64,000 nucleotides of DNA from Trichormus sp. ATA11-4-KO1 (GTDB lineage: Bacteria > Cyanobacteriota > Cyanobacteriia > Cyanobacteriales > Nostocaceae): NCBI GenBank assembly GCA_019358915.1, contig JAHHIM010000001.1, forward strand, positions 96,001-160,000. The letters are read 5' to 3'. The position numbers and the translations under genes are program-made. This document shows positions 19,555-41,151 of this stretch, in pieces (within the stretch, counting starts at the first letter, position 1; each line of letters starts with the position of its first letter). Under the pieces are notes generated by a model. That model was not told where the DNA came from. It was given only the letters and a program-made list of their open reading frames with translations, and searched no databases.

Positions 19555-20391
19555 ATGTGGTGTGGGTTTGGAAAATCCAGCATGATAATTGCTGTTAGCT
19601 GCTTAGTAACCACTACTGTGGTGGTTGCGGATACGACTTTTGCCGCTCGTCAACGTAACTATACGCCACAAGAGTTACGTACTGTGTTACGGGGCTTGGG
19701 CTATAACGTTAAAGTGACAAATGCACCCCTAACGGATGAAGAAACAAAAAAAGCCATCACTGAATTTCAAAGGGGTTACAAATTATCTGTTGATGGCATA
19801 GCAGGGCCAAAAACGCAAGATTTTGCTGCTAACATCGTCAAAATTCTGCAAGCCAATTTAAACGCGGTACTTAAACCTGATCCTCTTTTACCCCGTGATC
19901 AATTTTACGGGACTCGAACAGAAGAAGCTGTGAAGGTGGCTCAGAAAAAGTTTCAGATGGAAGAAACCGGCATTGCTAATTTAGCATTCCGCCAGAAGCT
20001 AAATGAAGAGGCAAAAAAAGTTATAGGTCAGCCTAGTACTGAGCTGACACCAACGCCAACGTCAACACCAACGCCGACACCGACACCGACACCAACGCCG
20101 ACACCGACACCAACGCCAACGCCGACACCGACACCAACGCCAACGCCAACGCCGACACCGACACCGACACCAACGCCGACACCGACACCGACACCAACGC
20201 CAACGCCAACGCCAACGCCAACGCCAACGCCGACACCGACACCGACACCAACGCCAACGCCAACGCCAACGCCAACGCCGACACCGACACCGACACCAAC
20301 GCCAACGCCAACGCCAACGCCAACGCCGACACCGACACCGACACCAACGCCAACGCCAACGCCAACGCCGACGCCAACGCCAACACCATAA
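19555..20391 (+). CDS. secreted peptidoglycan-binding protein with long Thr-Pro tail
   Basis: [25 protein letters not shown]-binding repeats; SD AAGGAG. Confidence 0.9.
20047..20388 (+). repeat. coding hexamer microsatellite (ACRCCR), about 57 TP units
   Basis: Direct reading of sequence and translation. Confidence 0.95.
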
Positions 20392-20549
20392 GCTTCAATA
20401 AAACAGTCTTACAGAGGAGATTACATAAAGCCCCCAGTACATCACGCATTAGCAGAGCTTTCACTTTAGTGATACGCTCATCACGTAGTGTACTGCGGGC
20501 TTAATTACGTTCGCGTAGCGTTTCCGCAGGAAATATTACGAATTACGAA

Positions 20550-28718: not shown

Positions 28719-29585
28719 CTAACCCATAATTTCAATATCATACAACTCGCATAAGGTGCGGAGTTTTTGTTTCAGGCGATCGCGCAGACTCTCCGGCGCT
28801 ATCACTACACAATCGGGAGCATACTGCATAACTTCGCGGCTAAACCAAAAGCTACTTGATACACGTCTGATGACTCGGCGGACTCGCGGCTTATCTGGTA
28901 GCCATTCATTAATATTGTCTTCTGGTTTAGCTTGATACCCAAAAGCCAAGCCAGCAAATAAGTGCATTTCTACTTCTATTTCGTCTAATTGAGTCCGCCA
29001 CTCACCAGGAATAGAAAGCACAGCCGCCTCAGTAATTCTGTCTAAACGCAAACTCCAGTTGTGAATGAGTTCGGGAATATCAAAGTTTCCTTCTGTTTCT
29101 TCACACCAACAATCAAGATATTGCCGTTTTTCGTGCGGTTTCACTTTGGCGTGGCGCACTGTGAAATTTAATAAGCGTCCAGCTGCATCTTGATAAGAAA
29201 GCTGAAATGGTTGGTTTCGCAGAATGTAGTTATCTATCTGTAAGCGCCAAGTTGGGGGTAAATTTTCTAAGAAGCGTTCAATGTCGCTTCTCAGTGGTAT
29301 TGATAATTCGCTGCGTTCTAAAAGTAAGTTTGCAATAACTTGTGCTTGTTCGATTTGTCCAATGTCGGTTAATGCAGCAATACACCGATGTAATGCACGG
29401 ATACGGGTTTCTGACCAATTGTTATTGTTACCGATGAGTAACTTACGTTGGGCGATCGCTTCTACTAGCTTGGATATATTCGGGCGATCGCCCCACATCA
29501 TACCAAATTCTAAGGCGATCGCTTCTAATTCCGCTTTATCGCGTTCTGAAATAGAGAGAGTTATAGACTGACCTTTCCGACTCAT
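28719..29585 (-). CDS. CRISPR-associated WYL-domain transcriptional regulator
   Basis: Start MSRKGQSITLSIS (RHH-like); YLDCWC..HNWSLRLDRI WYL core; divergent from cas3'. Confidence 0.9.
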   Translation of the reverse strand: MSRKGQSITLSISERDKAELEAIALEFGMMWGDRPNISKLVEAIAQRKLLIGNNNNWSETRIRALHRCIAALTDIGQIEQAQVIANLLLERSELSIPLRSDIERFLENLPPTWRLQIDNYILRNQPFQLSYQDAAGRLLNFTVRHAKVKPHEKRQYLDCWCEETEGNFDIPELIHNWSLRLDRITEAAVLSIPGEWRTQLDEIEVEMHLFAGLAFGYQAKPEDNINEWLPDKPRVRRVIRRVSSSFWFSREVMQYAPDCVVIAPESLRDRLKQKLRTLCELYDIEIMG

Positions 29586-29590
29586 ATTTG

Positions 29591-29672
29591 TACGGACACT
29601 TTTATACGGATGTATATTGCCAACCTTTATTTTGCATGGCAATATAAGAAGTAACAACCAGTTACGGACACT
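29591..29672. promoter_or_regulatory. WYL/cas3 divergent promoter with operator-like repeats
   Basis: TACGGACACT at 29591 and 29663; 10-bp inverted repeat TATATTGCCA-N14-TGGCAATATA at 29613-29646. Confidence 0.6.
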
Positions 29673-29682
29673 ATTTAAGTGT

Positions 29683-31860
29683 ATGTCCGAAGAATACCAA
29701 ATTACACTCAAGCCTGTTTATTCACAAACCGTCCCCACACCTGACGGAGTGAAATTACCTAAAGATTGGTCACTTTCATGGCATCAATTAGCTACTTTAG
29801 AAGCTTTGCGCGATCCAAACATTGATGTAGTATTCAACACAGCCATGACAGGCGATGGTAAAAGCTTGGCTGCATATTTAGAAGTTCTCCAAGGTATATT
29901 TTCCGCTATTGGACTTTACCCAACTAATGAACTCGCTCGTGACCAAGAAACACAAATTAGAGGATATATTCAGCAATTTCAGCCGGAAGATGAGCCGCGT
30001 GTAGTTAGATTAAGTGGGGCTGATTTAGAAATTTATGCCGAAAATGAGGGGTTAAAAAAAGGGGCAGCAATTTCTACTCTCACTAGCCAAAGAGAGGCAT
30101 TATTAACTAACCCTGATATTTTTCACTATTTGCATCGAGGGGCTTATATAATTCGTGGCGATAGCCCAGACAAGTTATGGGGAAGAATCGATAAAGATTT
30201 TGACTTATTTATTTTTGATGAATTTCACGTTTTTGCTGCTCCCCAAATTGCCAGTGTAATTAACACAATGTTATTAATTCGTTGTACAAATCGCCGCAAA
30301 AAATTTCTGTTTCTCTCAGCCACACCAGATACAAATTTAATTAGCAGGTTCCAACAGGTAGGATTTCGTTGTCAAGTCATCAATCCCATTGCCCAAAATA
30401 AATATCAATTTCCTGAGACACCAGAACAAGGACAGCAACTGCAAACACAGGGCTGGCGAAAGGTAGCGCGAACAATTTCACTGAATTTTATTCCTCTAGA
30501 ACCTACTTTTAAAGCTTCGGAAACTTGGCTAAAAGAAAATAGTGATTTAATTTTGGCTCAATTTCAACAGTATCCAGGTAGTAAAGGAGCAATTATTCTC
30601 AATTCAATTGCCGCAGTCAAGCGTTTAAAGGTATTTTTTCAAGAAATTCTCCAGCCTTATGAATTAACAGTAGGAGAAAATACAGGGCTTTCTGGAAAAG
30701 GCATAAAAGAGCGAAGCCTTACGGCTGATTTAGTTATCGGCACTAGCACAATTGATGTGGGTGTTGATTTTAAAATCAATTTTCTAATTTTTGAGTCATC
30801 GGATGCAGGTAACTTTATTCAGCGTTTAGGGCGCTTAGGTAGACATGACGGCTATGAGAAAAATGGTCAAATAATTAAGTTTGAAAACTTTACAGCTTTT
30901 GCCCTTGTGCCTAACTTTTTAGTAGAACGTTTATTTCAGGTAGATGCACCACCATTAGAGGTAAATAGTATTTATGAGCGACCATCTTTTCACAATACAA
31001 TTAGCGAGAACTATCGACAAATTAATGATTTTCGCGGTTATTATCGCCGTTGGGGTGCTGTACAATCATTTTGGCTGTATTACAAATTGAGCGATCGCAC
31101 AATTAAACAACAGTATGCTCAAAGCCGAGAACAGTTTCAAAAAGCCTGTGAACAAGTATTTGAAAGCAAGCTGAATTCCATAGCCGGACGTGTTTCAGGA
31201 TGGGCGAAAGACTGGAAAGTACTATCAGGTAAATCAGGAAATCCCATCGCTGACGATGCGTCTAGTTTTCGCGGTTCTAGTCCTTTGCAATGCGGTTTAT
31301 ACGATTTAACCGAAGAGAACGAAGCCGACAGGTTTAAAACCTACGATTTACCAGGTATTTTGGGGAATTTAGAAATTGAAATGTGGACAGAGGCAGGATT
31401 TATACGGACACTTAAAGAAACCGCACAACGCACAGAACAACCCATAGCCAAAGGTAGATTTGCTCATTGTCTAGCATTTATGAAGTTGCGTTCCTACCGT
31501 GAGGAACGGCTGAACTGGAAGTTTACCTATGCTGGCGACTTACAGCTAATAGCTGATGCTTGGAAAGTTCAGGTTTTGACTGGTTTGGAAATTTGGCAAC
31601 CTGACAATCAATGGATTGGTGCAATTAACAAACGACTGAAGAAGGAAGGTTTGGTTTGTTACGTAATTCGCCGTCCTGTGTCTGAGGTGCGGATGCGGTT
31701 ACGGCTACCGATGCACTTTCAGATTTACCCCATTAGTGATCAGTATAGCTTTCATGATGTTAGTGCAAGCTGTGCGATCGCTTTTGGTCACTCTGCACTG
31801 CTGCTAGATACCCTCGCTTATACGTTTAAAAGCACAGGAGATGAGATATGGGTTGTTTAG
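29683..31860 (+). CDS. cas3: type I-D Cas3' helicase (no HD domain)
   Basis: AMTGDGKS Walker A, IFDEFH, SAT, QRLGRLGRH; start at MSEEYQITLK. Confidence 0.95.
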   Translation: MSEEYQITLKPVYSQTVPTPDGVKLPKDWSLSWHQLATLEALRDPNIDVVFNTAMTGDGKSLAAYLEVLQGIFSAIGLYPTNELARDQETQIRGYIQQFQPEDEPRVVRLSGADLEIYAENEGLKKGAAISTLTSQREALLTNPDIFHYLHRGAYIIRGDSPDKLWGRIDKDFDLFIFDEFHVFAAPQIASVINTMLLIRCTNRRKKFLFLSATPDTNLISRFQQVGFRCQVINPIAQNKYQFPETPEQGQQLQTQGWRKVARTISLNFIPLEPTFKASETWLKENSDLILAQFQQYPGSKGAIILNSIAAVKRLKVFFQEILQPYELTVGENTGLSGKGIKERSLTADLVIGTSTIDVGVDFKINFLIFESSDAGNFIQRLGRLGRHDGYEKNGQIIKFENFTAFALVPNFLVERLFQVDAPPLEVNSIYERPSFHNTISENYRQINDFRGYYRRWGAVQSFWLYYKLSDRTIKQQYAQSREQFQKACEQVFESKLNSIAGRVSGWAKDWKVLSGKSGNPIADDASSFRGSSPLQCGLYDLTEENEADRFKTYDLPGILGNLEIEMWTEAGFIRTLKETAQRTEQPIAKGRFAHCLAFMKLRSYREERLNWKFTYAGDLQLIADAWKVQVLTGLEIWQPDNQWIGAINKRLKKEGLVCYVIRRPVSEVRMRLRLPMHFQIYPISDQYSFHDVSASCAIAFGHSALLLDTLAYTFKSTGDEIWVV

Positions 31861-31861
31861 C

Positions 31862-31962
31862 GTTTCAATCCCTGATAGGGATTAATTTTGAGAAAAAGCT
31901 TACGGTTCTAAGCACAGACTTATTCGTTTCAATCCCTGATAGGGATTCATGAAGTTGTTATG
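31862..31962 (-). CRISPR. antisense mini-array: two 5'-degenerate repeats and one 27-nt spacer (crRNA-like regulatory RNA)
   Basis: AATCCCTATCAGGGATTGAAAC (3' 22-23 nt of the main repeat) ends at 31926 and 31862 on the minus strand; spacer GAATAAGTCTGTGCTTAGAACCGTAAG at 31925-31899. Confidence 0.92.
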
Positions 31963-31987: not shown

Positions 31988-32017
31988 AGTATTCCATAAT
32001 CAGGTTGAATATGTCAA
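31988..32017 (-). promoter_or_regulatory. putative promoter of the mini-array
   Basis: TTGACA-N18-AATACT with TGn extension, about 25 nt upstream of the first pseudo-repeat. Confidence 0.45.
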
Positions 32018-32029
32018 TACTTAAAAATG

Positions 32030-32059
32030 GTTGAATAAGTCTGACCTTATAGCAATTTT
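32030..32059 (+). promoter_or_regulatory. PAM-flanked partial protospacer for the mini-array spacer
   Basis: GTT followed by GAATAAGTCTGaccttatagc: spacer positions 1-11, 14-17, 19 and 21 match. Confidence 0.8.
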
Positions 32060-32068
32060 AGAAATTGC

Positions 32069-32097
32069 TTGACAAGAGGTTTCGTTTTATGTAGCTT
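32069..32097 (+). promoter_or_regulatory. sigma70-type promoter for the wHTH gene and possibly the TA-cas operon
   Basis: TTGACA-N17-TAGCTT; SD AGGAG before the ATG at 32188. Confidence 0.7.
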
Positions 32098-32187
32098 CAG
32101 ATTATACAAATCAGTGAAGCTCAGAGATATAACAAGAATTTGGGCGGCTATAGCTGTATGTCAAAAGTTGTAAATTAGGAGAATACT

Positions 32188-32385
32188 ATGCTTGTCAAAT
32201 CGACAAACCTTGAGAAATTAATTGTACTTCTCAAGGATGGTAAATGGCATTCGAGCGATGAATTAGCAGCAAAGGTTAGTTTTCGATTTGGACACACTGT
32301 GTTTGAAGCTCGCAAGAAAGGCTACTTTGTTGAAACAAGGCAAGTTGCTCATAACCAATTTCAGTATCGGTTGTTAGCAGCGTAA
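32188..32385 (+). CDS. small winged-HTH protein (65 aa)
   Basis: LLKDGKWHSSDELA..ARKKGYFVET...YRL pattern of a HTH_11-like wHTH; strong SD. Confidence 0.8.
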   Translation: MLVKSTNLEKLIVLLKDGKWHSSDELAAKVSFRFGHTVFEARKKGYFVETRQVAHNQFQYRLLAA

Positions 32386-32403: not shown

Positions 32404-32604
32404 AGGGAATTTCTCTAGCTAAATTAGAGAATTCCCTTACAAGAGGGAAGCACAAGCTTGCGGTATTAAGCTCAGGCGTAAGCAGTCTTCATCCCCAACA
32501 GCTTGGCTGATGGTTGAGTAAGCCACTTAGAAGGCCACATCTTAAGACAGTAAGTTTTAGTCCAGCTTCCCTCTTTAGAAATTCTGCCACCAATGGTGGC
32601 AGAA
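32404..32604. other. structured non-coding segment (hairpin, 135-nt IR-closed domain, hairpin)
   Basis: Hairpin 32404-32437; AAGAGGGAAGC (32441) pairs with GCTTCCCTCTT (32575); hairpin TTCTGCCACC-AAT-GGTGGCAGAA 32582-32604. Confidence 0.55.
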
Positions 32605-32679
32605 ACTTGAATTAACATTGGAACTTACAAAATTAGTATCTAATTAATTAATTTATTCACCCAACTGGAGAATGAGCAA

Positions 32680-33132
32680 ATGCAAAATAATAACCCAACA
32701 ATTGCAGAACTTACAGAACTTTCCTTACAACTACCTGAAAAAATACCTTACTTAAAAATGTTAGTCCTCTTTGGTTCTAGAGCTACTGGTAATACACACG
32801 CAAATAGTGACTGGGATTTTGCTATTTTGTGTGATGAAGAACAGCGTCAGGCTTACACGGAAAATAATATTGGGGGTTTGTTTGAATTACCTATGCTGAT
32901 TGGCGAAGTATTGAAAATTAATTCTGACCATATTGATATTGTACAACTTAATCATTGTTCCGAATTAATAGCACATTTTGTTGCTCGTGATGGTCAGGTT
33001 TTATATGAGGATGAGGTGAAAGAATTTGATAAATTTAAACAAAAAGTATTACTGAGTAATTCAGACATCAAAAAAATTGAACATACTAAACGCAAAAATA
33101 TTGAACAGTTTCTAGCAAGATGGGGTGTATGA
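32680..33132 (+). CDS. mntA: MNT minimal nucleotidyltransferase antitoxin
   Basis: LFGSRATG...SDWDFA (GSx10DxD) and IDIV. Confidence 0.92.
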   Translation: MQNNNPTIAELTELSLQLPEKIPYLKMLVLFGSRATGNTHANSDWDFAILCDEEQRQAYTENNIGGLFELPMLIGEVLKINSDHIDIVQLNHCSELIAHFVARDGQVLYEDEVKEFDKFKQKVLLSNSDIKKIEHTKRKNIEQFLARWGV

Positions 33133-33572
33133 AAAATATAGATACTGTAATTATTTCAACTCGATTAGAGTTTATTGTTCGTTACCTTGAGAATTTGAAG
33201 AGATTCGAGGCGATTAGTTGGGATGATTACGTAAATAGCTTTGATACTCAACTAATTATTGAAAGGCTTCTACAATTAATGACTCAAGCGGCGATAGATA
33301 TCAACGACCATATATTGTCAAAGCTAAATCCTGGAAAGTCGCCAACTAACTTTGAGGCTTTTATTGAAATTGGTAAATATGGTGTCATTTCAACCGAATT
33401 AGCAGCACAATTGGCACCATCAGGAGGATTAAGAAATCGGCTGGTTCATGAATATGACGATATAGATCCAACAGAAGTTTTTAAAGCAATTAGTTTCGCG
33501 TTACAACAATATCCGCTTTACGTGCGGCAAATAAATACTTATTTAATTTCATTGGATGTAGATAATGACTAA
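33129..33572 (+). CDS. hepT: HEPN (DUF86) RNase toxin
   Basis: RNRLVHEY (RX4H plus Tyr); ATGA overlap with the MNT stop. Confidence 0.92.
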   Translation: MKNIDTVIISTRLEFIVRYLENLKRFEAISWDDYVNSFDTQLIIERLLQLMTQAAIDINDHILSKLNPGKSPTNFEAFIEIGKYGVISTELAAQLAPSGGLRNRLVHEYDDIDPTEVFKAISFALQQYPLYVRQINTYLISLDVDND

Positions 33573-36500
33573 AGAAACAAACCCCAAGGAAGAAAATCAA
33601 CAAGTATCTTTGTTTGAAAATAATACTGAAGAAGCGGAAGAATTAGAAGATAATTTCTTAAATCAAGACTTTGGCTTTGATGGTGATTCTTCAGACCGTA
33701 CTATTGAAACTGAAGGCGAATTACTCACACTCAAACTATTGCGAGAGGCAATTCAGGCGCAAAATGCTGATGATCAAGTAATGGCAGATTTTGCCGAGTA
33801 TGTTTTACCAAACTTGCTACGAATAGCCCTTGGTGTCACGGCTAAAGGAGGTAAATTTTTTGATGAAATTGACCAACAACGAGAAGCAGAAGGTAAAACT
33901 AAAGTTAGGCGAGATAATGCAGCTGATCAATCTCTAAATACTCACTTACTCAACGGTTTATTTCCCGCTAACTTAATTGAAAAGCGTTTAGAAAAACTCA
34001 ATACCACAGTGCGGCGAGTGGTGAAAGAAAGAGAACGCCGATTAGTAATTGCTGGGTTTATTTTACATGATTTTGAAAAATTTCCTGATGCACCAGAAGA
34101 TTGTCGTAAGTTACCGTTAGCAGAACATCGTCAAATTATTGATCAAAAAGTTCGCCAGTTAGGACTTGATAAGTTTATTAACCCAGATAATTCAGAAGCT
34201 TATCTGGAGTATTTAGATGATTTGTTGTGCATGGCTTATAATGCTCAACGACGCTGGGATACTAACTGGAATTTTTCGGAATTTGGCTTAAATCCTGTTT
34301 TGAAAGACCGCACCCTTCGCAGTCTGTCTGATTTAACTTGTTTGGCTGATTCTCTCGCCTCAATTGTTAAGCATCCCCAAGATGCAGAAAATACCAGACT
34401 CCAAGAAATTATCCATAATCTGAGTGATGGACAGTTGAAATTTACCTATCACAGCATTGCTGAAAATAGGGGTGTTTTAACTAATGTAGTGAATAATGCT
34501 TTAATTCAGACTCATACCAGTCTCAACACTGATGAAAATATCTACTATGAACCTTTGTTATATCTGCCAACAGGTGTAATTTATCTGGCTTTGCGTAATG
34601 CGCCGCCTATTGCACAAGAAGACTTATCAGACCGTGTAGTTGATAGTATTAAATCACTTTGTGCAGGTCAATTGCGTCTCAGACAAACAGGATTTGGTAG
34701 AGATGGCAAAGGTATGAAATATGCCGAATATTACAATTTATTTTTTGATGACTTAGGTTTAATGCGAGTAGCGTTAGATGCTACATTACGTGTATTAAAT
34801 TCTAATAAGCCTTCGGTTGCTCAAAGTCGTAGTGAAAATCTGATTAAATTTCAGCAACGAAAGGTTTTATCTGCTGATTATGACTTTAAATTTGCAGATG
34901 ATATCCGCATCGACCAAATAGCAGAATTTGGTGATTTAATTAGTAGGAAGATTTGGGAAGAGACTGTTAATCGCATTGACTCTGCTAGGAAGCAAGATAA
35001 AAAACTACCAGCAGTCCCAGATTTAGATTTAACTCACAAAATTGCAGAGTTTTGGAATTTATCAGCATATTTACCCCCAATTCGAGAAATTCAACGCATT
35101 AATGAAAGTCTCAAAGAAAATAAGTTAAAAGGAAATACTGGCGGAGTACCTTATGAATGGTATTACCTTGCGGCTAAATATCTGGAACGTCATCCTGGTA
35201 TTGAAAATGTCCGCGACTCTTGTCAGCAAGTCATCGATTACTTAACAACTTTGATTTCGCCGATTATTTCTCAGTACAACTTACCTGATGGCTGGGATGA
35301 TTTAAGGCTGTGGGTAAATCGCGTTGTGATGTTACCAAATACAAATCAAGAATTAGCAACTGAAACTCAAATTCAAACATTTTTAGATGAGCTAAGTAAC
35401 TACAATGCTGCCAAAAAACCAGGACGAGGACGGCAACTCATTTGCTCAATTTCTCACTCAGCTTACACTGTAACTGAGCAAATGGAATCAGCAGTTTTAT
35501 TTACGCCGCAAGTTTATACAAATAAGCAAATGTTAGGAGGTTCCAATGCCAAGCGTAACATCTCCAGTATTGCTGGTGTGGAGATGATGTTGAGGCAAAT
35601 ATTGATGAATCAAACTCAAGCAGTTGGTAAACGATTTGAAGATGGCAAATATCGCTATCTCTATTTTTACCCTACTTATTACTTCACACCAGAAACTAAT
35701 AAGTTTTTGCAGAAAGCTTACAACGGCATTGCTCAAACTCGCTTTGATACAAGCGTCCGTAATCATTTCATTAGTAAGGATTTACAGGCAAATTTAGCCA
35801 GAGAAAATTATCAAAGTGTAGATAGTTTCTTAATTGACGAAAATCTCCAGGCTGATAAAGACCGCACATTTAAGCTTTCTTATCCTGAAGACCAGCCTTT
35901 AACATTTTACTTCATGGCACTGCCACCAGGAAGAGACAGCACAGATACAGAATCTTGGGTAATGCCTAGTTGGTTAGCCTTTGCTTTCCCGATGATTTTA
36001 GACGTGAAAACAGTGGTTTCTGAGTCGCCAATTCCACCTTTTAATGATGGTTCTGAGTTTGAGGAAAGCGTTTTCTTAGATAGTGCGCCTCATGCTTTCC
36101 GTGCATTGGTAAGACGAGACAGATTTCGTCTTGACTACATCCTTGAAGGTTGGCAAGAAAACGGTATTCAATACCCTGCACCGTTGAATGTGCTTACAGC
36201 CGCCTACGCCATTCACTTAGATGTGAATGCTAGACAAGGTAAAACTGGTTACGATGCCAACTGGGGTAGATTCACAGAACTAGCAAAGGATTTTGAAACC
36301 AGTCCTTTGTACGTTTTCGCTTATCTCAATCGTTGGGTGCGTAACCAAGGAGTGGAAACAGCGCGAATCGAAAAAGTTAGGCTTTATGTCTATCATTTTT
36401 ACCCTTGTTTTGACCCCTATGTTAAATATGAAAAAAATATGGAGCAATTAATTGTGGGAGAAGAATCACACCTGAATCATCCAAAAATTTTAACAGATTT

Positions 36501-36903
36501 ATACCGCCGATTTTATCGGGCAAATAAGCGTTATAATCCCAAATCTAATGCTGTTTTAAAACCCATTGATATTGCAGCCGAAACTATTCTTAAAGCTGAA
36601 TCAAGTGTATTTCAAGGAGAAACATTAGTGGCGGCTGTAGCTGCGGAAGTCTTTAAACTCATGGATCGCGTTCATTCTTCTACTGCTGAGGGACGTTGGG
36701 TAATGAGTAAACGTGAAGAAGAACGGCAAGCTGTTTTAGAGTTTGCTAAATATTTTGTACAGGAGGTATTTGAGAAATCATTTGCAGGCGATCGCGCTCG
36801 TTTAGCAGGTCGCCAACTTAACTTAATTCGAGATACTTGTGAATTTCTTTATCGGCTTGAAGATGACAAAGAAAACGCAGAAAAAGTTGTAGAAACCGAA
36901 TAA
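33565..36903 (+). CDS. cas10d: type I-D large subunit Cas10d/Csc3 with N-terminal HD nuclease
   Basis: DQSLNTHLLNG..ILHDFEK HD motif; 1112 aa; operon context. Confidence 0.95.
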   Translation: MTKETNPKEENQQVSLFENNTEEAEELEDNFLNQDFGFDGDSSDRTIETEGELLTLKLLREAIQAQNADDQVMADFAEYVLPNLLRIALGVTAKGGKFFDEIDQQREAEGKTKVRRDNAADQSLNTHLLNGLFPANLIEKRLEKLNTTVRRVVKERERRLVIAGFILHDFEKFPDAPEDCRKLPLAEHRQIIDQKVRQLGLDKFINPDNSEAYLEYLDDLLCMAYNAQRRWDTNWNFSEFGLNPVLKDRTLRSLSDLTCLADSLASIVKHPQDAENTRLQEIIHNLSDGQLKFTYHSIAENRGVLTNVVNNALIQTHTSLNTDENIYYEPLLYLPTGVIYLALRNAPPIAQEDLSDRVVDSIKSLCAGQLRLRQTGFGRDGKGMKYAEYYNLFFDDLGLMRVALDATLRVLNSNKPSVAQSRSENLIKFQQRKVLSADYDFKFADDIRIDQIAEFGDLISRKIWEETVNRIDSARKQDKKLPAVPDLDLTHKIAEFWNLSAYLPPIREIQRINESLKENKLKGNTGGVPYEWYYLAAKYLERHPGIENVRDSCQQVIDYLTTLISPIISQYNLPDGWDDLRLWVNRVVMLPNTNQELATETQIQTFLDELSNYNAAKKPGRGRQLICSISHSAYTVTEQMESAVLFTPQVYTNKQMLGGSNAKRNISSIAGVEMMLRQILMNQTQAVGKRFEDGKYRYLYFYPTYYFTPETNKFLQKAYNGIAQTRFDTSVRNHFISKDLQANLARENYQSVDSFLIDENLQADKDRTFKLSYPEDQPLTFYFMALPPGRDSTDTESWVMPSWLAFAFPMILDVKTVVSESPIPPFNDGSEFEESVFLDSAPHAFRALVRRDRFRLDYILEGWQENGIQYPAPLNVLTAAYAIHLDVNARQGKTGYDANWGRFTELAKDFETSPLYVFAYLNRWVRNQGVETARIEKVRLYVYHFYPCFDPYVKYEKNMEQLIVGEESHLNHPKILTDLYRRFYRANKRYNPKSNAVLKPIDIAAETILKAESSVFQGETLVAAVAAEVFKLMDRVHSSTAEGRWVMSKREEERQAVLEFAKYFVQEVFEKSFAGDRARLAGRQLNLIRDTCEFLYRLEDDKENAEKVVETE
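36454..36903 (+). CDS. cas11d: Cas11d small subunit from internal translation start (149 aa)
   Basis: In-frame GTG 9 nt after GGAG, just before LTDLYRRFYR; internal Cas11d translation is established for type I-D. Confidence 0.6.
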   Translation: MGEESHLNHPKILTDLYRRFYRANKRYNPKSNAVLKPIDIAAETILKAESSVFQGETLVAAVAAEVFKLMDRVHSSTAEGRWVMSKREEERQAVLEFAKYFVQEVFEKSFAGDRARLAGRQLNLIRDTCEFLYRLEDDKENAEKVVETE

Positions 36904-36962
36904 GTAAATCTTTTATTTTGGTAAACGCAAACCAATAGTAAATCATTCATTGGAGACTAATT

Positions 36963-37973
36963 ATGTCATTTCTCAAAACAGTTGAATCCAAATTTTTTCA
37001 ATCTAAAATTCCCTACAAACCAATGGGTAAATATGTCCATTTTATCACTGTACGCATCACTGAATCTTATCCTCTATTTCAAACAGATGGAGAATTAAAT
37101 AAAGCCAGAGTGAGGGCTGGAGTTCAAGACAAAGCAACAATTAGCCGTTTGTCAATGTTTAAGCGCAAACAGTCTACACCAGAGCGTTTAGTTGGTCGGG
37201 AATTGTTGCGTAACTATGGCTTGATGACTGCGGAAGAATGCGAATATAATGTCAATTTTGCCATGGATAATCCTGATTGTATTATTTACGGTTTTGCTAT
37301 TGGTGATTCTGGTTCGGAAAAATCTAAGGTTGTAGTAGACACCGCATTTTCAATTACCGCTTTTGACGAATCACACGAAACTTTCACTCTTAACGCTCCC
37401 TATGAGAATGGCACAATGGCTTCTAAGGGTGAAAATGGTTCTAAACCTGGTGAAGTTACCAGTCGCATTAATCAGCAAGACCATATTAGACCACAAGTTT
37501 TCTTCCCTAGTATTGTTACCCTCAAAGACCCCACTGAAGCTAGCTTCCTTTACGTTTTTAATAATATCCTCAGAACGCGCCACTATGGAGCGCAAACTAC
37601 CCGTACAGGTCGTGTGAGAAATGAGTTAATTGGTGTTGTATTTGCAGATGGAGAAATTACTAGTAACCTGCGTTGGACTCAAGCAATATATGACCAAATG
37701 AAGGCACAAAAGACAATCAATCCTCCTGATCCTTTGGATGAAGATGATGTAATTACTGCTGCTAAAGGTGCAATTGAGGCTTTAATGGCTGATGAGTTTA
37801 TTGTGCATACTGATTTCATCGGTGAAGCTTTTTCACCTCTGCTGCATGAAGTTAAGAGCCTCGTAGGTGACGAAACAGGAATTAAGGCAGTTTTAGAAAA
37901 AGCTGATGCAGAGGCTAAAGATTATGCCAATACACATATTAGCAAAAAGAAAACTGCTGCTAAGGCTAAGTAA
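36963..37973 (+). CDS. csc2: Cas7/Csc2 backbone subunit
   Basis: FKRKQSTPERLVGRELLR, PDCIIYGFAIG, YGAQTTRTG. Confidence 0.95.
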   Translation: MSFLKTVESKFFQSKIPYKPMGKYVHFITVRITESYPLFQTDGELNKARVRAGVQDKATISRLSMFKRKQSTPERLVGRELLRNYGLMTAEECEYNVNFAMDNPDCIIYGFAIGDSGSEKSKVVVDTAFSITAFDESHETFTLNAPYENGTMASKGENGSKPGEVTSRINQQDHIRPQVFFPSIVTLKDPTEASFLYVFNNILRTRHYGAQTTRTGRVRNELIGVVFADGEITSNLRWTQAIYDQMKAQKTINPPDPLDEDDVITAAKGAIEALMADEFIVHTDFIGEAFSPLLHEVKSLVGDETGIKAVLEKADAEAKDYANTHISKKKTAAKAK

Positions 37974-37978
37974 CAGCT

Positions 37979-38686
37979 ATGGCTATGATCTACCGATGTC
38001 AATTAGAACTACATGACAGCCTATATTTTGCTACTCGTGAAATCGGGCGACTTTACGAAACAGAGCCAGTAATTCATAATTATGCTCTCTGTTATGCACT
38101 CGGTTTAGTTGATAGCGAAGTCTACTCTACTATAGTGGCTGAAGAACATTCCTATCGCTATTTTTGCCCTGAACAAGTGCCAAAATATGAGGAGCATTTA
38201 ACACCACTCAATCAACAGGGAATTTACATTACTCCGGCTCGTTCTATCAAACATTCAGCCATTCTCAATACCTGGAAGTATGCTAACAATAACTACCATG
38301 TTGAAATGGAGAAAACACAGAAGAATATTCCTAGCTTTGGTAGAGCAAAAGAAATAGCACCAGAAAGTCAATTTGAGTTTTTCGTTATTTCTCAAAAAGA
38401 CATCAAACTACCAAAGTGGATTCGCTTGGGTAAATGGATGAGTAAGGCTGAGGTGACAGTTACAGAATTGCCGAAACCTAAAACTAATGGAGGAATCTTC
38501 ACCTGTAAACATCCCTTAAACCCTTTAGATGTGATGTTCACTCATCAAGTGATTAGTTACGATGTAGTGAATATGCCTCCAGTTAGTCTAATTCAAAATG
38601 TGCAAATTAGAGGAGAATATTACCAGTTTGATGCTTTAAAAGACTTAAAAATTCCAGCGAGAATGGAATACCGTTTTCGTAGTTAA
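37979..38686 (+). CDS. csc1: Cas5/Csc1
   Basis: LHDSLYFATRE, HNYALCYALG, WIRLGKWMSK. Confidence 0.95.
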   Translation: MAMIYRCQLELHDSLYFATREIGRLYETEPVIHNYALCYALGLVDSEVYSTIVAEEHSYRYFCPEQVPKYEEHLTPLNQQGIYITPARSIKHSAILNTWKYANNNYHVEMEKTQKNIPSFGRAKEIAPESQFEFFVISQKDIKLPKWIRLGKWMSKAEVTVTELPKPKTNGGIFTCKHPLNPLDVMFTHQVISYDVVNMPPVSLIQNVQIRGEYYQFDALKDLKIPARMEYRFRS

Positions 38687-38718
38687 TTACAATTGCTAGA
38701 TTACTCCCCACATCCATC

Positions 38719-39330
38719 GTGAAATACTATCAACAACAACCCAACGCCTTCCCCAGCGACTACTTAAATAACTTGTGGGGAGTAATCCAGGCTTGTCCTT
38801 ACTTTGCTACCAACAACCTTAACCGTGATTTTGTCGCCACTAAAGGATTTTCTGTTGTATTCAAACGATCGCACATCCCCACAGTAGAACAAAAATTCCC
38901 TTACTTCAAGCCATACCTAGATTTAGCTCTCCAAGAGAGTTGTAATGCTTTTTACCTCAATCCTTTACAGCTAAAAGAAGGTTCCCGTGTAGATCCGCAC
39001 ATTGATCGCTCTTTGCGTTCTTACTGCAAAACGGTTGAACCGCCTGCGGTTGTCAGTGTTCTGTATGTGCGATTACCAGAGAATATGGAAGGGGGAGAAC
39101 TACTACTCAAGTCGCACAAACGCCAACTTGGGGAAATTAAGCCACAAGTAAATACATTACTCTACTTTCAAGGTGATTTAACCCACTCCGTCAACGCCGT
39201 GAAAACACCAGGAAATCGCCTGAGTTTGGTTTGTGAACAGTATAGTTTAAGTAATGCTGAACTCGCAGAAATACCAGAGTTTACCATCGAATCAAGAATT
39301 GCTCAATCTACAACAAAAAAACGCAAGTAA
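38719..39330 (+). CDS. 2OG-Fe(II) oxygenase inside the cas operon
   Basis: PHID, GGELLL, LTHSV, RLSLV (HxD...H...RxS). Confidence 0.88.
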   Translation: MKYYQQQPNAFPSDYLNNLWGVIQACPYFATNNLNRDFVATKGFSVVFKRSHIPTVEQKFPYFKPYLDLALQESCNAFYLNPLQLKEGSRVDPHIDRSLRSYCKTVEPPAVVSVLYVRLPENMEGGELLLKSHKRQLGEIKPQVNTLLYFQGDLTHSVNAVKTPGNRLSLVCEQYSLSNAELAEIPEFTIESRIAQSTTKKRK

Positions 39331-39360
39331 TTTCTTGAATTTTTAATTTTTAATTGTTAT

Positions 39361-40200
39361 ATGCCTCATAGCCTTATTCTTAACTTACTCCCTCAGTCGC
39401 CTATTCCATCCCAATATCTCACAGGCAGACATCTACACGCTTTATTTTTAACTCTTGTCAGTTCCGTAGATCGAAAATTAGGCGATCGCTTGCATGATGC
39501 TACCGCAGACAAAGCTTTCACCCTCTCTCCCCTACAAATTAGTAGCGCTAACTCTCCCCTTTTGAAGGGGGGTAGGGGGGGATGTAAACTACAACACTCA
39601 CATCAGCAACCCATTCCAGTCGGAACGCCTTGTTGGTGGCGCATCTCCCTATTAGATGACACACTCTTTAGCCAACTTACCCAACTGTGGCTCAATCTTA
39701 ACCCTAATCATCCTTGGCATCTTGGCCCGGCTGACTTGTATATTACCAGCATTCAAGGTACACCCCAATCTACTCAACCTTGGGCAAATGCCTGTAGCTA
39801 TGCTCAATTATACGAACAAGCCAGCGATCGCGATCGCACAATTGACCTTATATTCTCCACTCCCACTGCCTTCCGCCAAGGAAAATTTGACACTACTCTT
39901 CCCACTAGAGAATGTGTTTTTAATTCTCTAGTTTCCCGATGGAATAAATACAGTGGTATGGAATTTGACCACATTGCTATTGAGTCAATATTTCCCTCTT
40001 TCATCAACATACATACAGAAATATTAGCCGACTCTCGCAGCAAATTTATTGGCATTATCGGAGAAGTTAGTTATCGGATTTTAGGAGAAATTGAACCAAT
40101 ACAAATTAAGCAAATTAATGCTTTAGCTGACTTTGTTTTATATGCAGGAATTGGACGAAAAACCACAATGGGTATGGGGATGGTGCGACGGCGACATTAA
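39361..40200 (+). CDS. cas6: Cas6 crRNA endoribonuclease
   Basis: GRHLHALF, FTLSPL, C-terminal G-loop YAGIGRKTTMGMG. Confidence 0.96.
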   Translation: MPHSLILNLLPQSPIPSQYLTGRHLHALFLTLVSSVDRKLGDRLHDATADKAFTLSPLQISSANSPLLKGGRGGCKLQHSHQQPIPVGTPCWWRISLLDDTLFSQLTQLWLNLNPNHPWHLGPADLYITSIQGTPQSTQPWANACSYAQLYEQASDRDRTIDLIFSTPTAFRQGKFDTTLPTRECVFNSLVSRWNKYSGMEFDHIAIESIFPSFINIHTEILADSRSKFIGIIGEVSYRILGEIEPIQIKQINALADFVLYAGIGRKTTMGMGMVRRRH

Positions 40201-40229
40201 CCACAACTTCAACTCAATTATGCAAAATA

Positions 40230-40361
40230 CTGACTAAATTTAAGCATCCCGTCATGCAAAAACAACATACCTATCAAGAATCATTTGAAATTCAAGGCCG
40301 TCTGCTAGCTAAATATCTCATGGGAGAAATTGACAAATATCCCCCATTAGTCATGAAATAA
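40230..40361 (+). pseudogene. cas1: 3' remnant of cas1 (cas4 and most of cas1 deleted)
   Basis: Frame LTKFKHPVMQKQHTYQESFEIQGRLLAKYLMGEIDKYPPLVMK* resembles cyanobacterial I-D Cas1 C-termini and sits directly before cas2. Confidence 0.85.
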
Positions 40362-40373
40362 TTAGTCAATTCT

Positions 40374-40646
40374 ATGTTTTTAGTAATTTCCTACGATATA
40401 TCCGAAGACAAGCGCCGCACCAAAATTCACAAAATTCTCAAATCTTACGGACAGTGGATGCAGTATTCCGTATTTGAGTGCGACCTCACCCAGACTCAGT
40501 ATGCTAAACTGCGATCGCGCTTGTCTAAAGTCATCAAACCAGACCAAGACAGCATCCGGTTTTATTTCCTCTGCGCTTGCTGTCAGGGAAAAGTTGAGCG
40601 CATTGGTGGTGAAATGCCAATCAACACCACAGTATTTTTTGCCTGA
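40374..40646 (+). CDS. cas2: Cas2
   Basis: VISYDISEDKRR..YGQWMQYSVFEC. Confidence 0.97.
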   Translation: MFLVISYDISEDKRRTKIHKILKSYGQWMQYSVFECDLTQTQYAKLRSRLSKVIKPDQDSIRFYFLCACCQGKVERIGGEMPINTTVFFA

Positions 40647-40899
40647 GTTTAGCGTCAACCAGTAGGTGTTTTACAAAAAAGTTGAGATTTTGCATCTCAA
40701 AAGCTTATCCCATCTGGGTTTTAACCCTCTAATACCAATATTAAGATTGACGCTAACTAACTAAACCGTTGCTGTAAATGCCTTTGAGGTAATTTTCTCA
40801 AATGTCACTCTTGACAACCCAATGCCTGAAAAGTTATCTTAGGCTGTAATTGACGAAACTGTACCTTGAAAATCAAATATACCAATGCTTTCAGATGCG
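40647..40899 (+). promoter_or_regulatory. CRISPR leader
   Basis: AT-rich; GCGTCAA...TTGACGC inverted motif; TTGACA(40811)-N18-TATCTT promoter candidate. Confidence 0.7.
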
Positions 40900-41151
40900 G
40901 TTCCAATTACTAATAATCCCTATCAGGGATTGAAACCAGACTTTTTATCGGGTTTGGGGGTAGAACCTGTGTTCCAATTACTAATAATCCCTATCAGGGA
41001 TTGAAACTTCAGCAAAAAAGTTATTTTAAAAGCGCTAAGAGACAGTTCCAATTACTAATAATCCTTATCAGGGATTGAAACGATTTTGGACAATTCCCAT
41101 GTCTAGCAGTTTTTGTTCCAATTACTAATAATCCTTATCAGGGATTGAAAC
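40900..41151 (+). CRISPR. type I-D array, 4 repeats and 3 spacers
   Basis: 37-nt repeat GTTCCAATTACTAATAATCC(C/T)TATCAGGGATTGAAAC at 40900, 40971, 41045, 41115; spacers 34, 37 and 33 nt. Confidence 0.98.

What the first reader, a model, noticed from the sequence alone, without database searches (positions are those of the whole stretch)
32051..32385. Uncharacterised 65-aa wHTH gene is the first output of the targeted promoter, with a palindromic operator on the -35
Seen: strong SD and wHTH-like sequence. A perfect inverted repeat AGCAATTT-TAG-AAATTGCT (32051-32069) bridges the PAM-distal end of the protospacer and the first base of the -35 box. Inference: the protein is either a Cascade-repressed toxin or effector released on Cascade loss or anti-CRISPR attack, or a repressor binding this palindrome as a second control layer.
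Basis: partly seen in the sequence, partly recalled or inferred. Interest (0 to 1): 0.75.

Follow-up and report, generated by a model that had tools for sequence, protein, structure and literature searches.

The report
Conserved winged-helix gene heading CRISPR operon
A real, conserved 65-residue winged-helix protein gene sits first behind a promoter that this cyanobacterium's own type I-D CRISPR machinery seems to switch off; it looks like a regulator rather than a toxin, and the neat palindrome beside it is not conserved.

Summary
The ORF at 32188-32385, its AGGAG ribosome site and the perfect 8+3+8 palindrome at 32051-32069 are all there, and the protein folds as a winged helix (pLDDT 87).

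The gene is real and tied to CRISPR. In 23 of 23 related genome loci it lies between cas3' and cas10d, and 22 of 24 more distant homologues head type I cas operons. PADLOC already lists the family as 'HTH'; RefSeq calls one homologue hypothetical.

A two-repeat mini-array on the opposite strand has a conserved guide. Its seed matches two GTT-flanked sites at divergent promoters, and guide and targets co-vary. This kind of circuit was predicted computationally by Shmakov et al. 2023.

The palindrome is specific to this window: 0 of 26 relatives have arms of 6 bp or more.

A toxin role is unlikely. The domain is fused to MntA antitoxins elsewhere and occurs without mini-arrays. The best reading is a DNA-binding controller of the operon, which is untested.

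New here: a conserved structured RNA at 32438-32576 follows the gene, and one segment of it is complementary to the guide and co-varies with it.

The parts
31862..31898 (-). Repeat-like unit psiR2 of the mini-array (3' repeat of the crRNA-like RNA)
   Evidence: Rfam CRISPR-DR5, 34.8 bits (gathering score 40), minus strand. Its last 22 nt are identical to the main-array repeat.
31899..31925 (-). Spacer-like guide psiS. Position 1 is 31925, and positions 13-28 are self-complementary.
   Evidence: The guide is nearly invariant across 28 loci from different genera.
31926..31961 (-). Repeat-like unit psiR1, which supplies the ATTGAAAC 5' handle
   Evidence: Rfam CRISPR-DR5, 32.6 bits, minus strand.
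31988..32017 (-). Promoter-like site for the mini-array (TTGACA, 18 nt, AATACT, with TG before the second hexamer)
   Evidence: 10 of 12 matches in the promoter scan. Its -35 lies inside target site 1.
32004..32030 (+). Target site 1: GTT PAM at 32004-32006, protospacer from 32007
   Evidence: 2 mismatches in the 10 seed positions. A homologous site is present in 26 of 28 loci.
32030..32067 (+). Target site 2: GTT PAM at 32030-32032, protospacer from 32033
   Evidence: 11 of 11 seed positions match. Guide and target co-vary in other lineages.
32051..32069 (.). Perfect palindrome AGCAATTT-TAG-AAATTGCT
   Evidence: Not conserved.
32069..32097 (+). Promoter of the small gene: TTGACA at 32069-74, 17 nt, TAGCTT at 32092-97
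   Evidence: By eye. The pattern is conserved in 22 of 24 rows. The consensus scan did not call it because the -10 matches only 3 of 6.
32118..32146 (+). Conserved inverted repeat AGCTC...GGGCG in the 5' leader
   Evidence: 87.8% of cells paired across 18 loci, but covariation is no better than in shuffles. RNAalifold predicts no structure.
32188..32385 (+). 65-aa winged-helix gene (Shine-Dalgarno AGGAG at 32177-32181)
32405..32436 (+). Hairpin directly after the stop codon
   Evidence: Aligned in most loci of A4.
32438..32576 (+). Conserved structured RNA element. The closing stem pairs 32441-50 with 32566-75. The segment 32455-83 is complementary to the guide.
32680..33572 (+). Variable cargo: mntA (32680-33132) and hepT (33120-33572), a type VII toxin-antitoxin pair
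   Evidence: NCBIfam equivalogs MntA (83.6 bits) and HepT (111.6 bits).
33565..40200 (+). Effector genes cas10d, csc2, csc1, a 2OG-Fe(II) oxygenase gene, and cas6
28719..31860 (.). WYL/WCX regulator gene (minus strand, 28719-29585) facing away from cas3' (plus strand, about 29683-31860)

Best explanation
The 65-aa ORF encodes a minimal winged-helix protein of a CRISPR-associated 'HTH' family.

It is the promoter-proximal gene of the type I-D effector transcription unit: small gene, then a structured RNA, then optional toxin-antitoxin or nuclease cargo, then cas10d-csc2-csc1-cas6. A crRNA-like RNA is made from a two-repeat mini-array on the opposite strand. Loaded into I-D Cascade, it should bind two tandem GTT-flanked sites by its seed only, without cleavage. 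Binding would block the -35 regions of the mini-array's own promoter and of the small-gene promoter, giving RNA-guided autorepression of the CreR/mini-array kind.

The winged-helix protein most likely adds a protein-based control layer. As the first product of the operon it would bind DNA in this locus and tune or limit transcription, much as the small controller proteins that precede restriction-enzyme genes do, or the Aca proteins of anti-CRISPR operons.

Shown here: the gene is real, the fold, the position, the linkage to CRISPR and WYL genes, and the guide-target covariation.
Inferred: DNA binding, the target site, the sign of regulation, and co-transcription with cas10d.
For: - Fold: winged helix, pLDDT 87.4. 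The best solved-structure matches are DNA-binding regulators.
- Family: PADLOC model PDLC01152 'HTH' matches the full length at E 5.8e-26. 16 of 52 relatives weakly match Pfam HTH_39.
- Purifying selection: codon-position differences 263:187:504.
- Position: between cas3' and cas10d in 23 of 23 loci. 22 of 24 more distant homologues lie beside type I cas genes, and 23 of 24 lie beside a WYL gene.
- The gene is constant while the cargo varies. Cargo is MntA/HepT, DUF433, a PIN-like protein or a YhcG nuclease, and 5 of 23 loci have none.
- Promoter: conserved in 22 of 24 rows.
- Targets: 27 of 28 loci have at least one GTN-flanked seed match and 26 of 28 have two. Other lineages have different guides with matching targets.
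- PAM: the I-D PAM is GTN/GTH (review PMC10212523, passages read).
- Fusions: in 7 of 30 scanned relatives the domain sits N-terminal to an MntA-type nucleotidyltransferase, the place where antitoxins carry their DNA-binding module.
- Co-transcription: no promoter-like site lies between the RNA element and the next gene in 16 of 22 loci.
Against: - No operator could be identified. The palindrome is not conserved, and the only conserved dyad in the leader shows no covariation and could be either RNA or DNA.
- A 65-aa winged helix has no obvious dimerisation element.
- Winged helices also bind RNA, and ribosomal proteins appear among the fold matches.
- In this window a 9-of-12 promoter-like site (32612-32639) could drive mntA and the genes after it separately. 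In that case the small gene would be a separate unit.
- No transcript data were available.
- Only 12 of 65 Cas10d-positive genomes in the sample carry the gene upstream of cas10d, so type I-D systems work without it.
Confidence: 0.55

Rival explanations
1. The protein belongs with the toxin-antitoxin cargo rather than with CRISPR. It would be the DNA-binding or adaptor component of MntA-HepT-type modules, and it stays behind in loci that have lost the cargo.
For: Seven fusion proteins join the winged helix to MntA, one of them through a DUF433 domain. Where mntA is present it always lies downstream of the small gene (11 of 23 loci). The plasmid pUHCC0315a shows the order hypothetical protein, nucleotidyltransferase, DUF86, cas10d.
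Against: In 12 of 23 loci tblastn finds no MntA, and 5 have no cargo at all, yet the gene is intact and conserved. Distant homologues directly head cas operons that lack MntA (L031, L033, L036, L044). In the sampled genomes the two are separate genes with stop codons between them.
Confidence: 0.15
2. The protein binds RNA. It would act on the conserved structured RNA that follows its gene, or on the crRNA-like RNA, and control downstream cas or cargo expression after transcription.
For: The RNA element at 32438-32576 follows the gene in every locus of this arrangement (14 used to build the model, plus 17 of 17 others). Ribosomal winged-helix proteins are among the fold matches.
Against: Homologues in the WYL-adjacent arrangement have no such RNA element (0 of 15 loci), so the element is not a universal partner. 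The top fold matches are DNA binders.
Confidence: 0.1
3. One reading: the protein is a toxin or effector kept silent by Cascade and released when Cascade is lost or inhibited, as in CreTA.
For: Its promoter is the seed-matched, PAM-flanked target of a mini-array guide. Shmakov et al. 2023 propose such addiction circuits for I-D cargo (section 24 and discussion read).
Against: - It has a small winged-helix fold with no enzymatic or membrane feature.
- The same domain is fused to antitoxins.
- 8 loci carry a homologue with no mini-array to restrain it.
- An actual toxin (HepT) sits further down the same unit.
- The known CreT toxins are small RNAs (recalled, not checked here).
Confidence: 0.05
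4. One reading: the protein is a repressor that binds the 32051-32069 palindrome.
For: The palindrome is perfect (8+3+8), abuts the -35, and an inverted repeat like it covers that fixed position in only 16 of 2000 shuffles. Three near relatives keep short arms with changes on both sides (AGTAA..TTACT in L002).
Against: 0 of 26 related loci have arms >=6 at that place. Most lack the roughly 11-nt insert altogether, although their proteins are 60-94% identical. The right arm is the conserved flank of the -35.
Confidence: 0.05

Closest known systems
Regulatory mini-arrays / crRNA-like RNAs that repress cas or cargo promoters. Sources: Shmakov et al. 2023, preprint PMC10120712, of which I read text passages and section 24 but saw neither figures nor supplementary file 6; and CreR of Liu et al. 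2023, recalled only.
   Same: Two repeat-like units flank a conserved spacer. The spacer is partly complementary, in its seed, to a PAM-flanked site in a promoter between cas3 and cas10d of type I-D loci. Toxin-antitoxin genes and 'transcriptional regulators' lie downstream as cargo.
   Different: - Here the small winged-helix gene is not variable cargo. It is the constant first gene.
- There are two tandem targets, one on each of two divergent promoters.
- A conserved structured RNA with a guide-complementary segment follows the gene.
- None of these points appears in the text I read.
CreTA (Cascade-repressed toxin RNA with a CreA antitoxin RNA; recalled)
   Same: A degenerate mini-CRISPR guides Cascade to the promoter of a neighbouring gene inside a cas locus.
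   Different: The first product here is a conserved winged-helix protein, not a small toxic RNA. No toxicity is shown, and homologues exist without any mini-array.
Controller (C) proteins of restriction-modification systems and Aca proteins of anti-CRISPR operons (recalled)
   Same: A small HTH protein is encoded first in an operon whose later products are nucleases or toxins. Those proteins autoregulate their own promoter.
   Different: The fold class may differ (winged helix here). No operator has been found. There is no sequence relationship (no Pfam or NCBIfam hit).
WYL-domain regulators of type I-D loci, such as Sll7009 (review PMC10212523, passages read)
   Same: A DNA-binding regulator encoded at the head of cyanobacterial I-D loci. 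A WYL gene accompanies the small gene in 22 of 23 and in 23 of 24 loci.
   Different: The small protein has no WYL or WCX domain. It is a separate 65-aa gene on the opposite strand.
PADLOC-DB model PDLC01152 'HTH' and Pfam HTH_39 (PF14090)
   Same: PDLC01152 matches over the full length at E 5.8e-26. 16 of 52 relatives match HTH_39 weakly.
   Different: The window protein itself has no Pfam match at E <=0.01. Neither model carries a tested function. Two searches for HTH_39 found two papers, neither of them functional.

Membership tests
Winged helix-turn-helix fold | Three helices followed by a beta-hairpin wing | tested here: met
   AlphaFold2 model: H7-15, H23-29, H34-43, E47-54, E57-63; pLDDT 87.4. 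Foldseek TM 0.6-0.7 to HlyU, NolR, MarR and AspA.
Pfam HTH_39 (PF14090) | Score above the curated cut-off | tested here: not met
   No Pfam family at E <=0.01. At E <=1 only HTH_91 appears, at 13.4 bits against a cut-off of 27. 16 of 52 relatives match HTH_39, best E 3.1e-6.
CRISPR-associated 'HTH' (PADLOC PDLC01152) | Full-length match to the model | tested here: met
   E 5.8e-26, residues 3-63 on model positions 3-62 of 63. The origin of that model in the published cas-profile sets is recalled, not checked.
CRISPR-associated gene (by neighbourhood) | Homologues consistently encoded inside cas loci | tested here: met
   23 of 23 loci. 22 of 24 further places; one contig is too short and one (L035) lies among Ser/Thr kinase genes.
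Mini-array / CreR-type autoregulation | Two repeat-like units with a spacer conserved among relatives | tested here: met
   Rfam CRISPR-DR5 twice on the minus strand. Present in all 30 window-like rows (WIN, L001-L023, L025-L030), and the guide is nearly invariant.
Mini-array / CreR-type autoregulation | Partial, seed-weighted match to a promoter, flanked by the subtype's PAM | tested here: met
   GTT plus 11 of 11 seed positions at 32030-32043. 27 of 28 loci have at least one such site, and guide and target co-vary. GTN/GTH PAM from PMC10212523.
Mini-array / CreR-type autoregulation | Cascade-dependent repression without cleavage | not testable with these tools
   Needs reporter and interference assays.
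CreTA toxin | The product arrests growth when Cascade or CreA is absent | not testable with these tools
   Indirect evidence is against it: fusions to antitoxins, and 8 loci without a mini-array.
Autoregulating controller (C-protein / Aca-like) | Encoded first in the operon it controls | tested here: met
   First ORF behind the conserved promoter in all window-like loci.
Autoregulating controller (C-protein / Aca-like) | Conserved operator (dyad or direct repeats) at its own promoter | tested here: inconclusive
   The palindrome is not conserved. The leader dyad AGYCC..GGGCT is conserved but uninformative.
Type VII toxin-antitoxin MntA-HepT (neighbouring genes) | NCBIfam equivalog scores above the cut-off | tested here: met
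   MntA 83.6 bits against 60; HepT 111.6 bits against 60.

The most novel reading that the evidence does not exclude
The winged-helix gene and the structured RNA behind it form, with the mini-array, a three-part controller that works at two levels. The crRNA-like guide would direct I-D Cascade to promoter DNA through seed plus PAM. It would also direct Cascade to the operon's own mRNA through the long, PAM-less, co-varying complementarity at 32455-32483, using the RNA-binding ability that type I-D shares with type III. The winged-helix protein, as the first product, would set the level or timing. That would be RNA-guided self-regulation of a type I system at the transcript level, which I did not find described.
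Probability: 0.15. Interest if true: 0.8.

Novelty: new variant of a known kind. Interest (0 to 1): 0.55.

Why it matters
Self-regulation of CRISPR-Cas by degenerate mini-arrays has recently been recognised. For type I-D it rests on computational prediction only.

This locus family offers a compact, strongly conserved test case. It has a constant guide, two PAM-flanked targets on divergent promoters, an unnamed winged-helix protein that is always the first product, and a structured RNA carrying a guide-complementary segment.

If the protein is a controller, it explains how a strong promoter in front of nucleases and toxins is kept safe when Cascade is absent, for example after horizontal transfer or an anti-CRISPR attack. 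If the RNA segment is a genuine target, it would show a type I system using its type III-like RNA binding on its own transcript.

Both ideas can be tested directly with reporters and purified components.

Tried and rejected
- Pfam and NCBIfam on the window protein: no family.
- Profile search against solved structures: nothing below E 0.37.
- Foldseek against the PDB: generic winged-helix matches only, none at E <=0.001.
- tblastn against 50,697 phage records: no match at E <=1e-3.
- Homodimer prediction: no verdict, so it counts neither for nor against binding.
- Public RNA runs: none was listed, so there is no expression evidence either way.
- Earlier findings of this scan: none for this genome.
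- RNAalifold on the 5' leader: no structure. The hand-drawn leader hairpin shows no covariation beyond shuffles.
- Search for a guide-complementary element behind the WYL-adjacent subfamily genes: background only, 13-16 of 26.
- Apparent in-frame wHTH-MntA fusions in two sampled genomes: rejected, because stop codons lie between the genes.
- Guide-plus-repeat pattern hits in G131, G174 and G002:C63: chance matches, with no repeat hairpin and no cas genes.
- The sequence 'GCTATCGC' between -35 and -10 as an operator specific to this protein: rejected, because it is shared by loci whose small proteins belong to a different subfamily.
- Literature: four searches and the texts read do not single out this small protein. 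Figure 6 and supplementary file 6 of Shmakov et al. could not be seen and may show it.

Full report
**Setting.** The window holds a cyanobacterial type I-D CRISPR-Cas locus.
- A WYL/WCX regulator gene lies on the minus strand (28719-29585).
- On the plus strand come cas3' (to 31860), the 65-aa ORF (32188-32385), mntA and hepT (32680-33572), cas10d (33565-36903), csc2, csc1, a 2OG-Fe(II) oxygenase gene and cas6 (to 40200).
- A short main array of four 37-nt repeats lies at 40900-41151 on the plus strand.

**The observation.**
- The palindrome AGCAATTT-TAG-AAATTGCT lies at 32051-32069, and its last base opens TTGACA (32069-74).
- TAGCTT follows 17 nt later. AGGAG lies six bases before the ATG.
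- In dinucleotide shuffles of the 327-nt intergenic region, a perfect inverted repeat with arms >=8 and loop <=12 turns up somewhere in 187 of 2000. One covering that fixed base turns up in 16 of 2000.

**The 'targeted promoter'.** Between cas3' and the ORF lie two repeat-like units, at 31862-31898 and 31926-31961.
- Their last 22 nt equal the reverse complement of the main-array repeat.
- Rfam reads both as CRISPR-DR5 on the minus strand, at 34.8 and 32.6 bits, below the gathering score of 40.
- A promoter-like site on the minus strand (TTGACA 32017-12, 18 nt, AATACT; 10 of 12) would drive them.
- The guide that follows the ATTGAAAC handle matches the plus strand at 32033-32043 in 11 of 11 positions behind GTT. 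It matches a second site from 32007, behind another GTT, with two seed mismatches.
- GTN/GTH is the I-D PAM (PMC10212523, passages read).
- Site 1 contains the -35 of the mini-array promoter. Site 2 ends at the -35 of the small-gene promoter.

**Conservation of the circuit.**
- A scan of species-representative genomes returned 23 loci. In all 23 the homologue lies between cas3' and cas10d, and 22 have the divergent WYL gene; the remaining contig is too short.
- The mini-array is present in all of them.
- Among 28 distinct window-like loci (WIN, L001-L023, L027-L030), 27 have at least one GTN-flanked seed match. 26 have two, L028 has one and L014 has none.
- Guides that differ have targets that differ with them. 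Examples are L029, L021/L022, the L045-L047 group with a different guide, and the L040-L044 group with yet another guide and a GTC-flanked site on the other strand.
- TTGA(C/T)A-N17-TAnnnT is seen in 22 of 24 rows.
- This architecture matches what Shmakov et al. 2023 predicted for I-D loci: mini-arrays between cas3 and cas10d, targets in promoters of cargo, and cargo rich in toxin-antitoxin genes and 'transcriptional regulators' (text read; figures and supplementary file 6 not seen).

**The palindrome is not conserved.**
- In 26 related loci the best inverted repeat between site 2 and the -35 has arms of at most 5 bp.
- The distance from protospacer position 1 to the -35 is 23-27 nt in most loci. 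It is 36-38 nt only in this window and a few near relatives that carry an A/T-rich insert.
- The right arm is the conserved flank of the -35, and the left arm is private to this window.
- In most loci the -35 lies inside the stretch a full-length protospacer would cover.

**The gene is real.**
- 60 homologues were found, all small proteins; sources that name an organism name cyanobacteria, apart from one metagenome bin labelled otherwise.
- Differences from 23 orthologues fall 263:187:504 on codon positions 1:2:3, with 352 synonymous and 356 non-synonymous codon changes (related sequences are not independent).

**Fold and family.**
- The AlphaFold2 model is a winged helix with pLDDT 87.4.
- The nearest solved folds are ArsR/SmtB, MarR and AspA regulators (E 0.017-0.1). 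The nearest viral models are small uncharacterised phage HTH proteins (best E 2.7e-4).
- Pfam and NCBIfam are silent on the window protein.
- PADLOC model PDLC01152 'HTH' matches end to end at E 5.8e-26, so the family is already catalogued, though unnamed and untested.
- RefSeq annotates one homologue, on plasmid pUHCC0315a, as hypothetical.

**Wider family.** A profile search found 301 representatives at E <=0.001.
- In a sample of 401 cyanobacterial genomes, 25 carry a homologue. Of the 24 places other than the window, 22 have type I cas genes within the fetched stretch (up to 8 kb on each side). One contig is too short, and one place lies among kinase genes.
- I distinguish three subfamilies:
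  - the window type;
  - a second type in the same cas3'-to-cas10d position, with a different guide (L045-L047);
  - a third type that lies directly opposite the WYL gene at the head of I-D-like operons (cas10d-like, csc2, csc1, cas3') or more divergent type I operons. Seven of these loci have a mini-array and eight do not.
- Cas10d is found in 65 of the 401 genomes. The small gene lies upstream of it in 12 of these (compared by eye). The module is therefore an optional add-on.

**What the protein does.**
- Against a toxin:
  - the fold;
  - seven relatives in which the domain is fused N-terminally to an MntA-type antitoxin, one through DUF433;
  - homologues without any mini-array;
  - a real toxin (HepT) lies further down the unit.
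- For a locus regulator:
  - it is invariably the first gene, while the cargo behind it varies (MntA/HepT, DUF433, a PIN-like protein, a YhcG nuclease, or nothing in 5 of 23 loci);
  - it always accompanies a WYL regulator;
  - it sits where antitoxins carry DNA-binding modules.
- I could not find its operator.
- I put the controller reading at 0.55 and mark DNA binding, its target and its sign as inferred.

**A further element.** The roughly 190 nt after the stop codon are more conserved than the ORF.
- RNAalifold on 14 loci gives a plus-strand structure of 23 pairs (-21.34 kcal/mol), 5 of them with compensatory changes. A 10-bp closing stem pairs 32441-50 with 32566-75.
- 94.4% of cells pair, and 0 of 500 shuffles reach the observed values on four of five measures. 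The structure was derived from the same alignment.
- Several invariant G-U pairs argue for the plus strand.
- A covariance model finds the element at full length behind the small gene in 17 of 17 further window-like loci. It finds it in 0 of 15 loci of the WYL-adjacent type, and once in the window's own genome.
- Segment 32455-32483 is complementary to guide positions 1-29 (21 of 29 identical to the reverse complement).
- Within-locus similarity exceeds between-locus similarity (21.5 against 20.1; 0 of 5000 permutations reach it). Lineage-specific changes are shared.
- It has no GTN flank and mismatches at positions 2-3, so it is not a standard DNA target. Whether it is an RNA target of crRNA-like-guided I-D Cascade, an antisense partner or a co-evolving relic remains open.
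- No promoter-like site separates the element from the next gene in 16 of 22 loci. This window is one of the six that have one.

**Verdict.** The circuit type is known from computational work. The constant winged-helix gene and the guide-complementary structured RNA are a variant that I did not find described in the texts I could read.

Noticed in passing
window 32438-32576 (+): A conserved structured RNA follows the small gene. It has 23 predicted pairs, 5 of them compensatory. The covariance model finds it in all window-like loci and in none of the WYL-adjacent type.
   Followed up: yes
window 32455-32483 (+) compared with the guide at 31925-31897 (-): This segment of the RNA element is complementary to almost the whole mini-array guide and co-varies with it across loci. 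It has no GTN flank. It may be an RNA-level target or pairing partner.
   Followed up: partly
window 31913-31898 (-): Guide positions 13-28 are self-complementary (GCTTA-GAACCG-TAAGC), and this part is conserved although it does not match the DNA targets. It might limit R-loop extension and so prevent self-cleavage.
   Followed up: no
window 29586-29682: The WYL-cas3' intergenic region has two direct ACGGACAC repeats (29592-99 and 29664-71) flanking an inverted repeat TTGCCA..TGGCAA (29617-42). The same motifs stand between WYL and the small gene in L036, L042 and L043. They are probably the WYL operator. They are absent at the small-gene promoter.
   Followed up: partly
window 38719-39330 (+): A 2OG-Fe(II) oxygenase gene lies inside the I-D operon between csc1 and cas6. 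It matches the PADLOC CAS-associated '2OG' model at E 2.4e-84 and is also present in L008, L009, L045 and L046.
   Followed up: no
window 40200-41151: The adaptation module is reduced. No ORF of >=100 aa lies between cas6 and the array. By eye there is only a cas2-like ORF at about 40374-40646, which I did not test with an HMM. The main array has just 4 repeats and 3 spacers.
   Followed up: no
P0067, P0068, P0069, P0077, P0083, P0090, P0109: Natural fusion proteins join the winged-helix domain to an MntA nucleotidyltransferase; P0090 also carries DUF433. This mirrors the gene order seen in the I-D cargo region. Their genomic context is unknown.
   Followed up: partly
L031:6576-13405, L033:882-7913: Behind the WYL and small-gene pair lie operons of about 820-850, 290-314, 270-278 and 890-905 aa. 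Only the last protein matches a known family (Cas3 core). This may be a divergent type I variant.
   Followed up: no
window 19993-20460: A long run of 12-nt (occasionally 18-nt) tandem units, 25 staggered copies, lies inside ORF 19555-20391.
   Followed up: no
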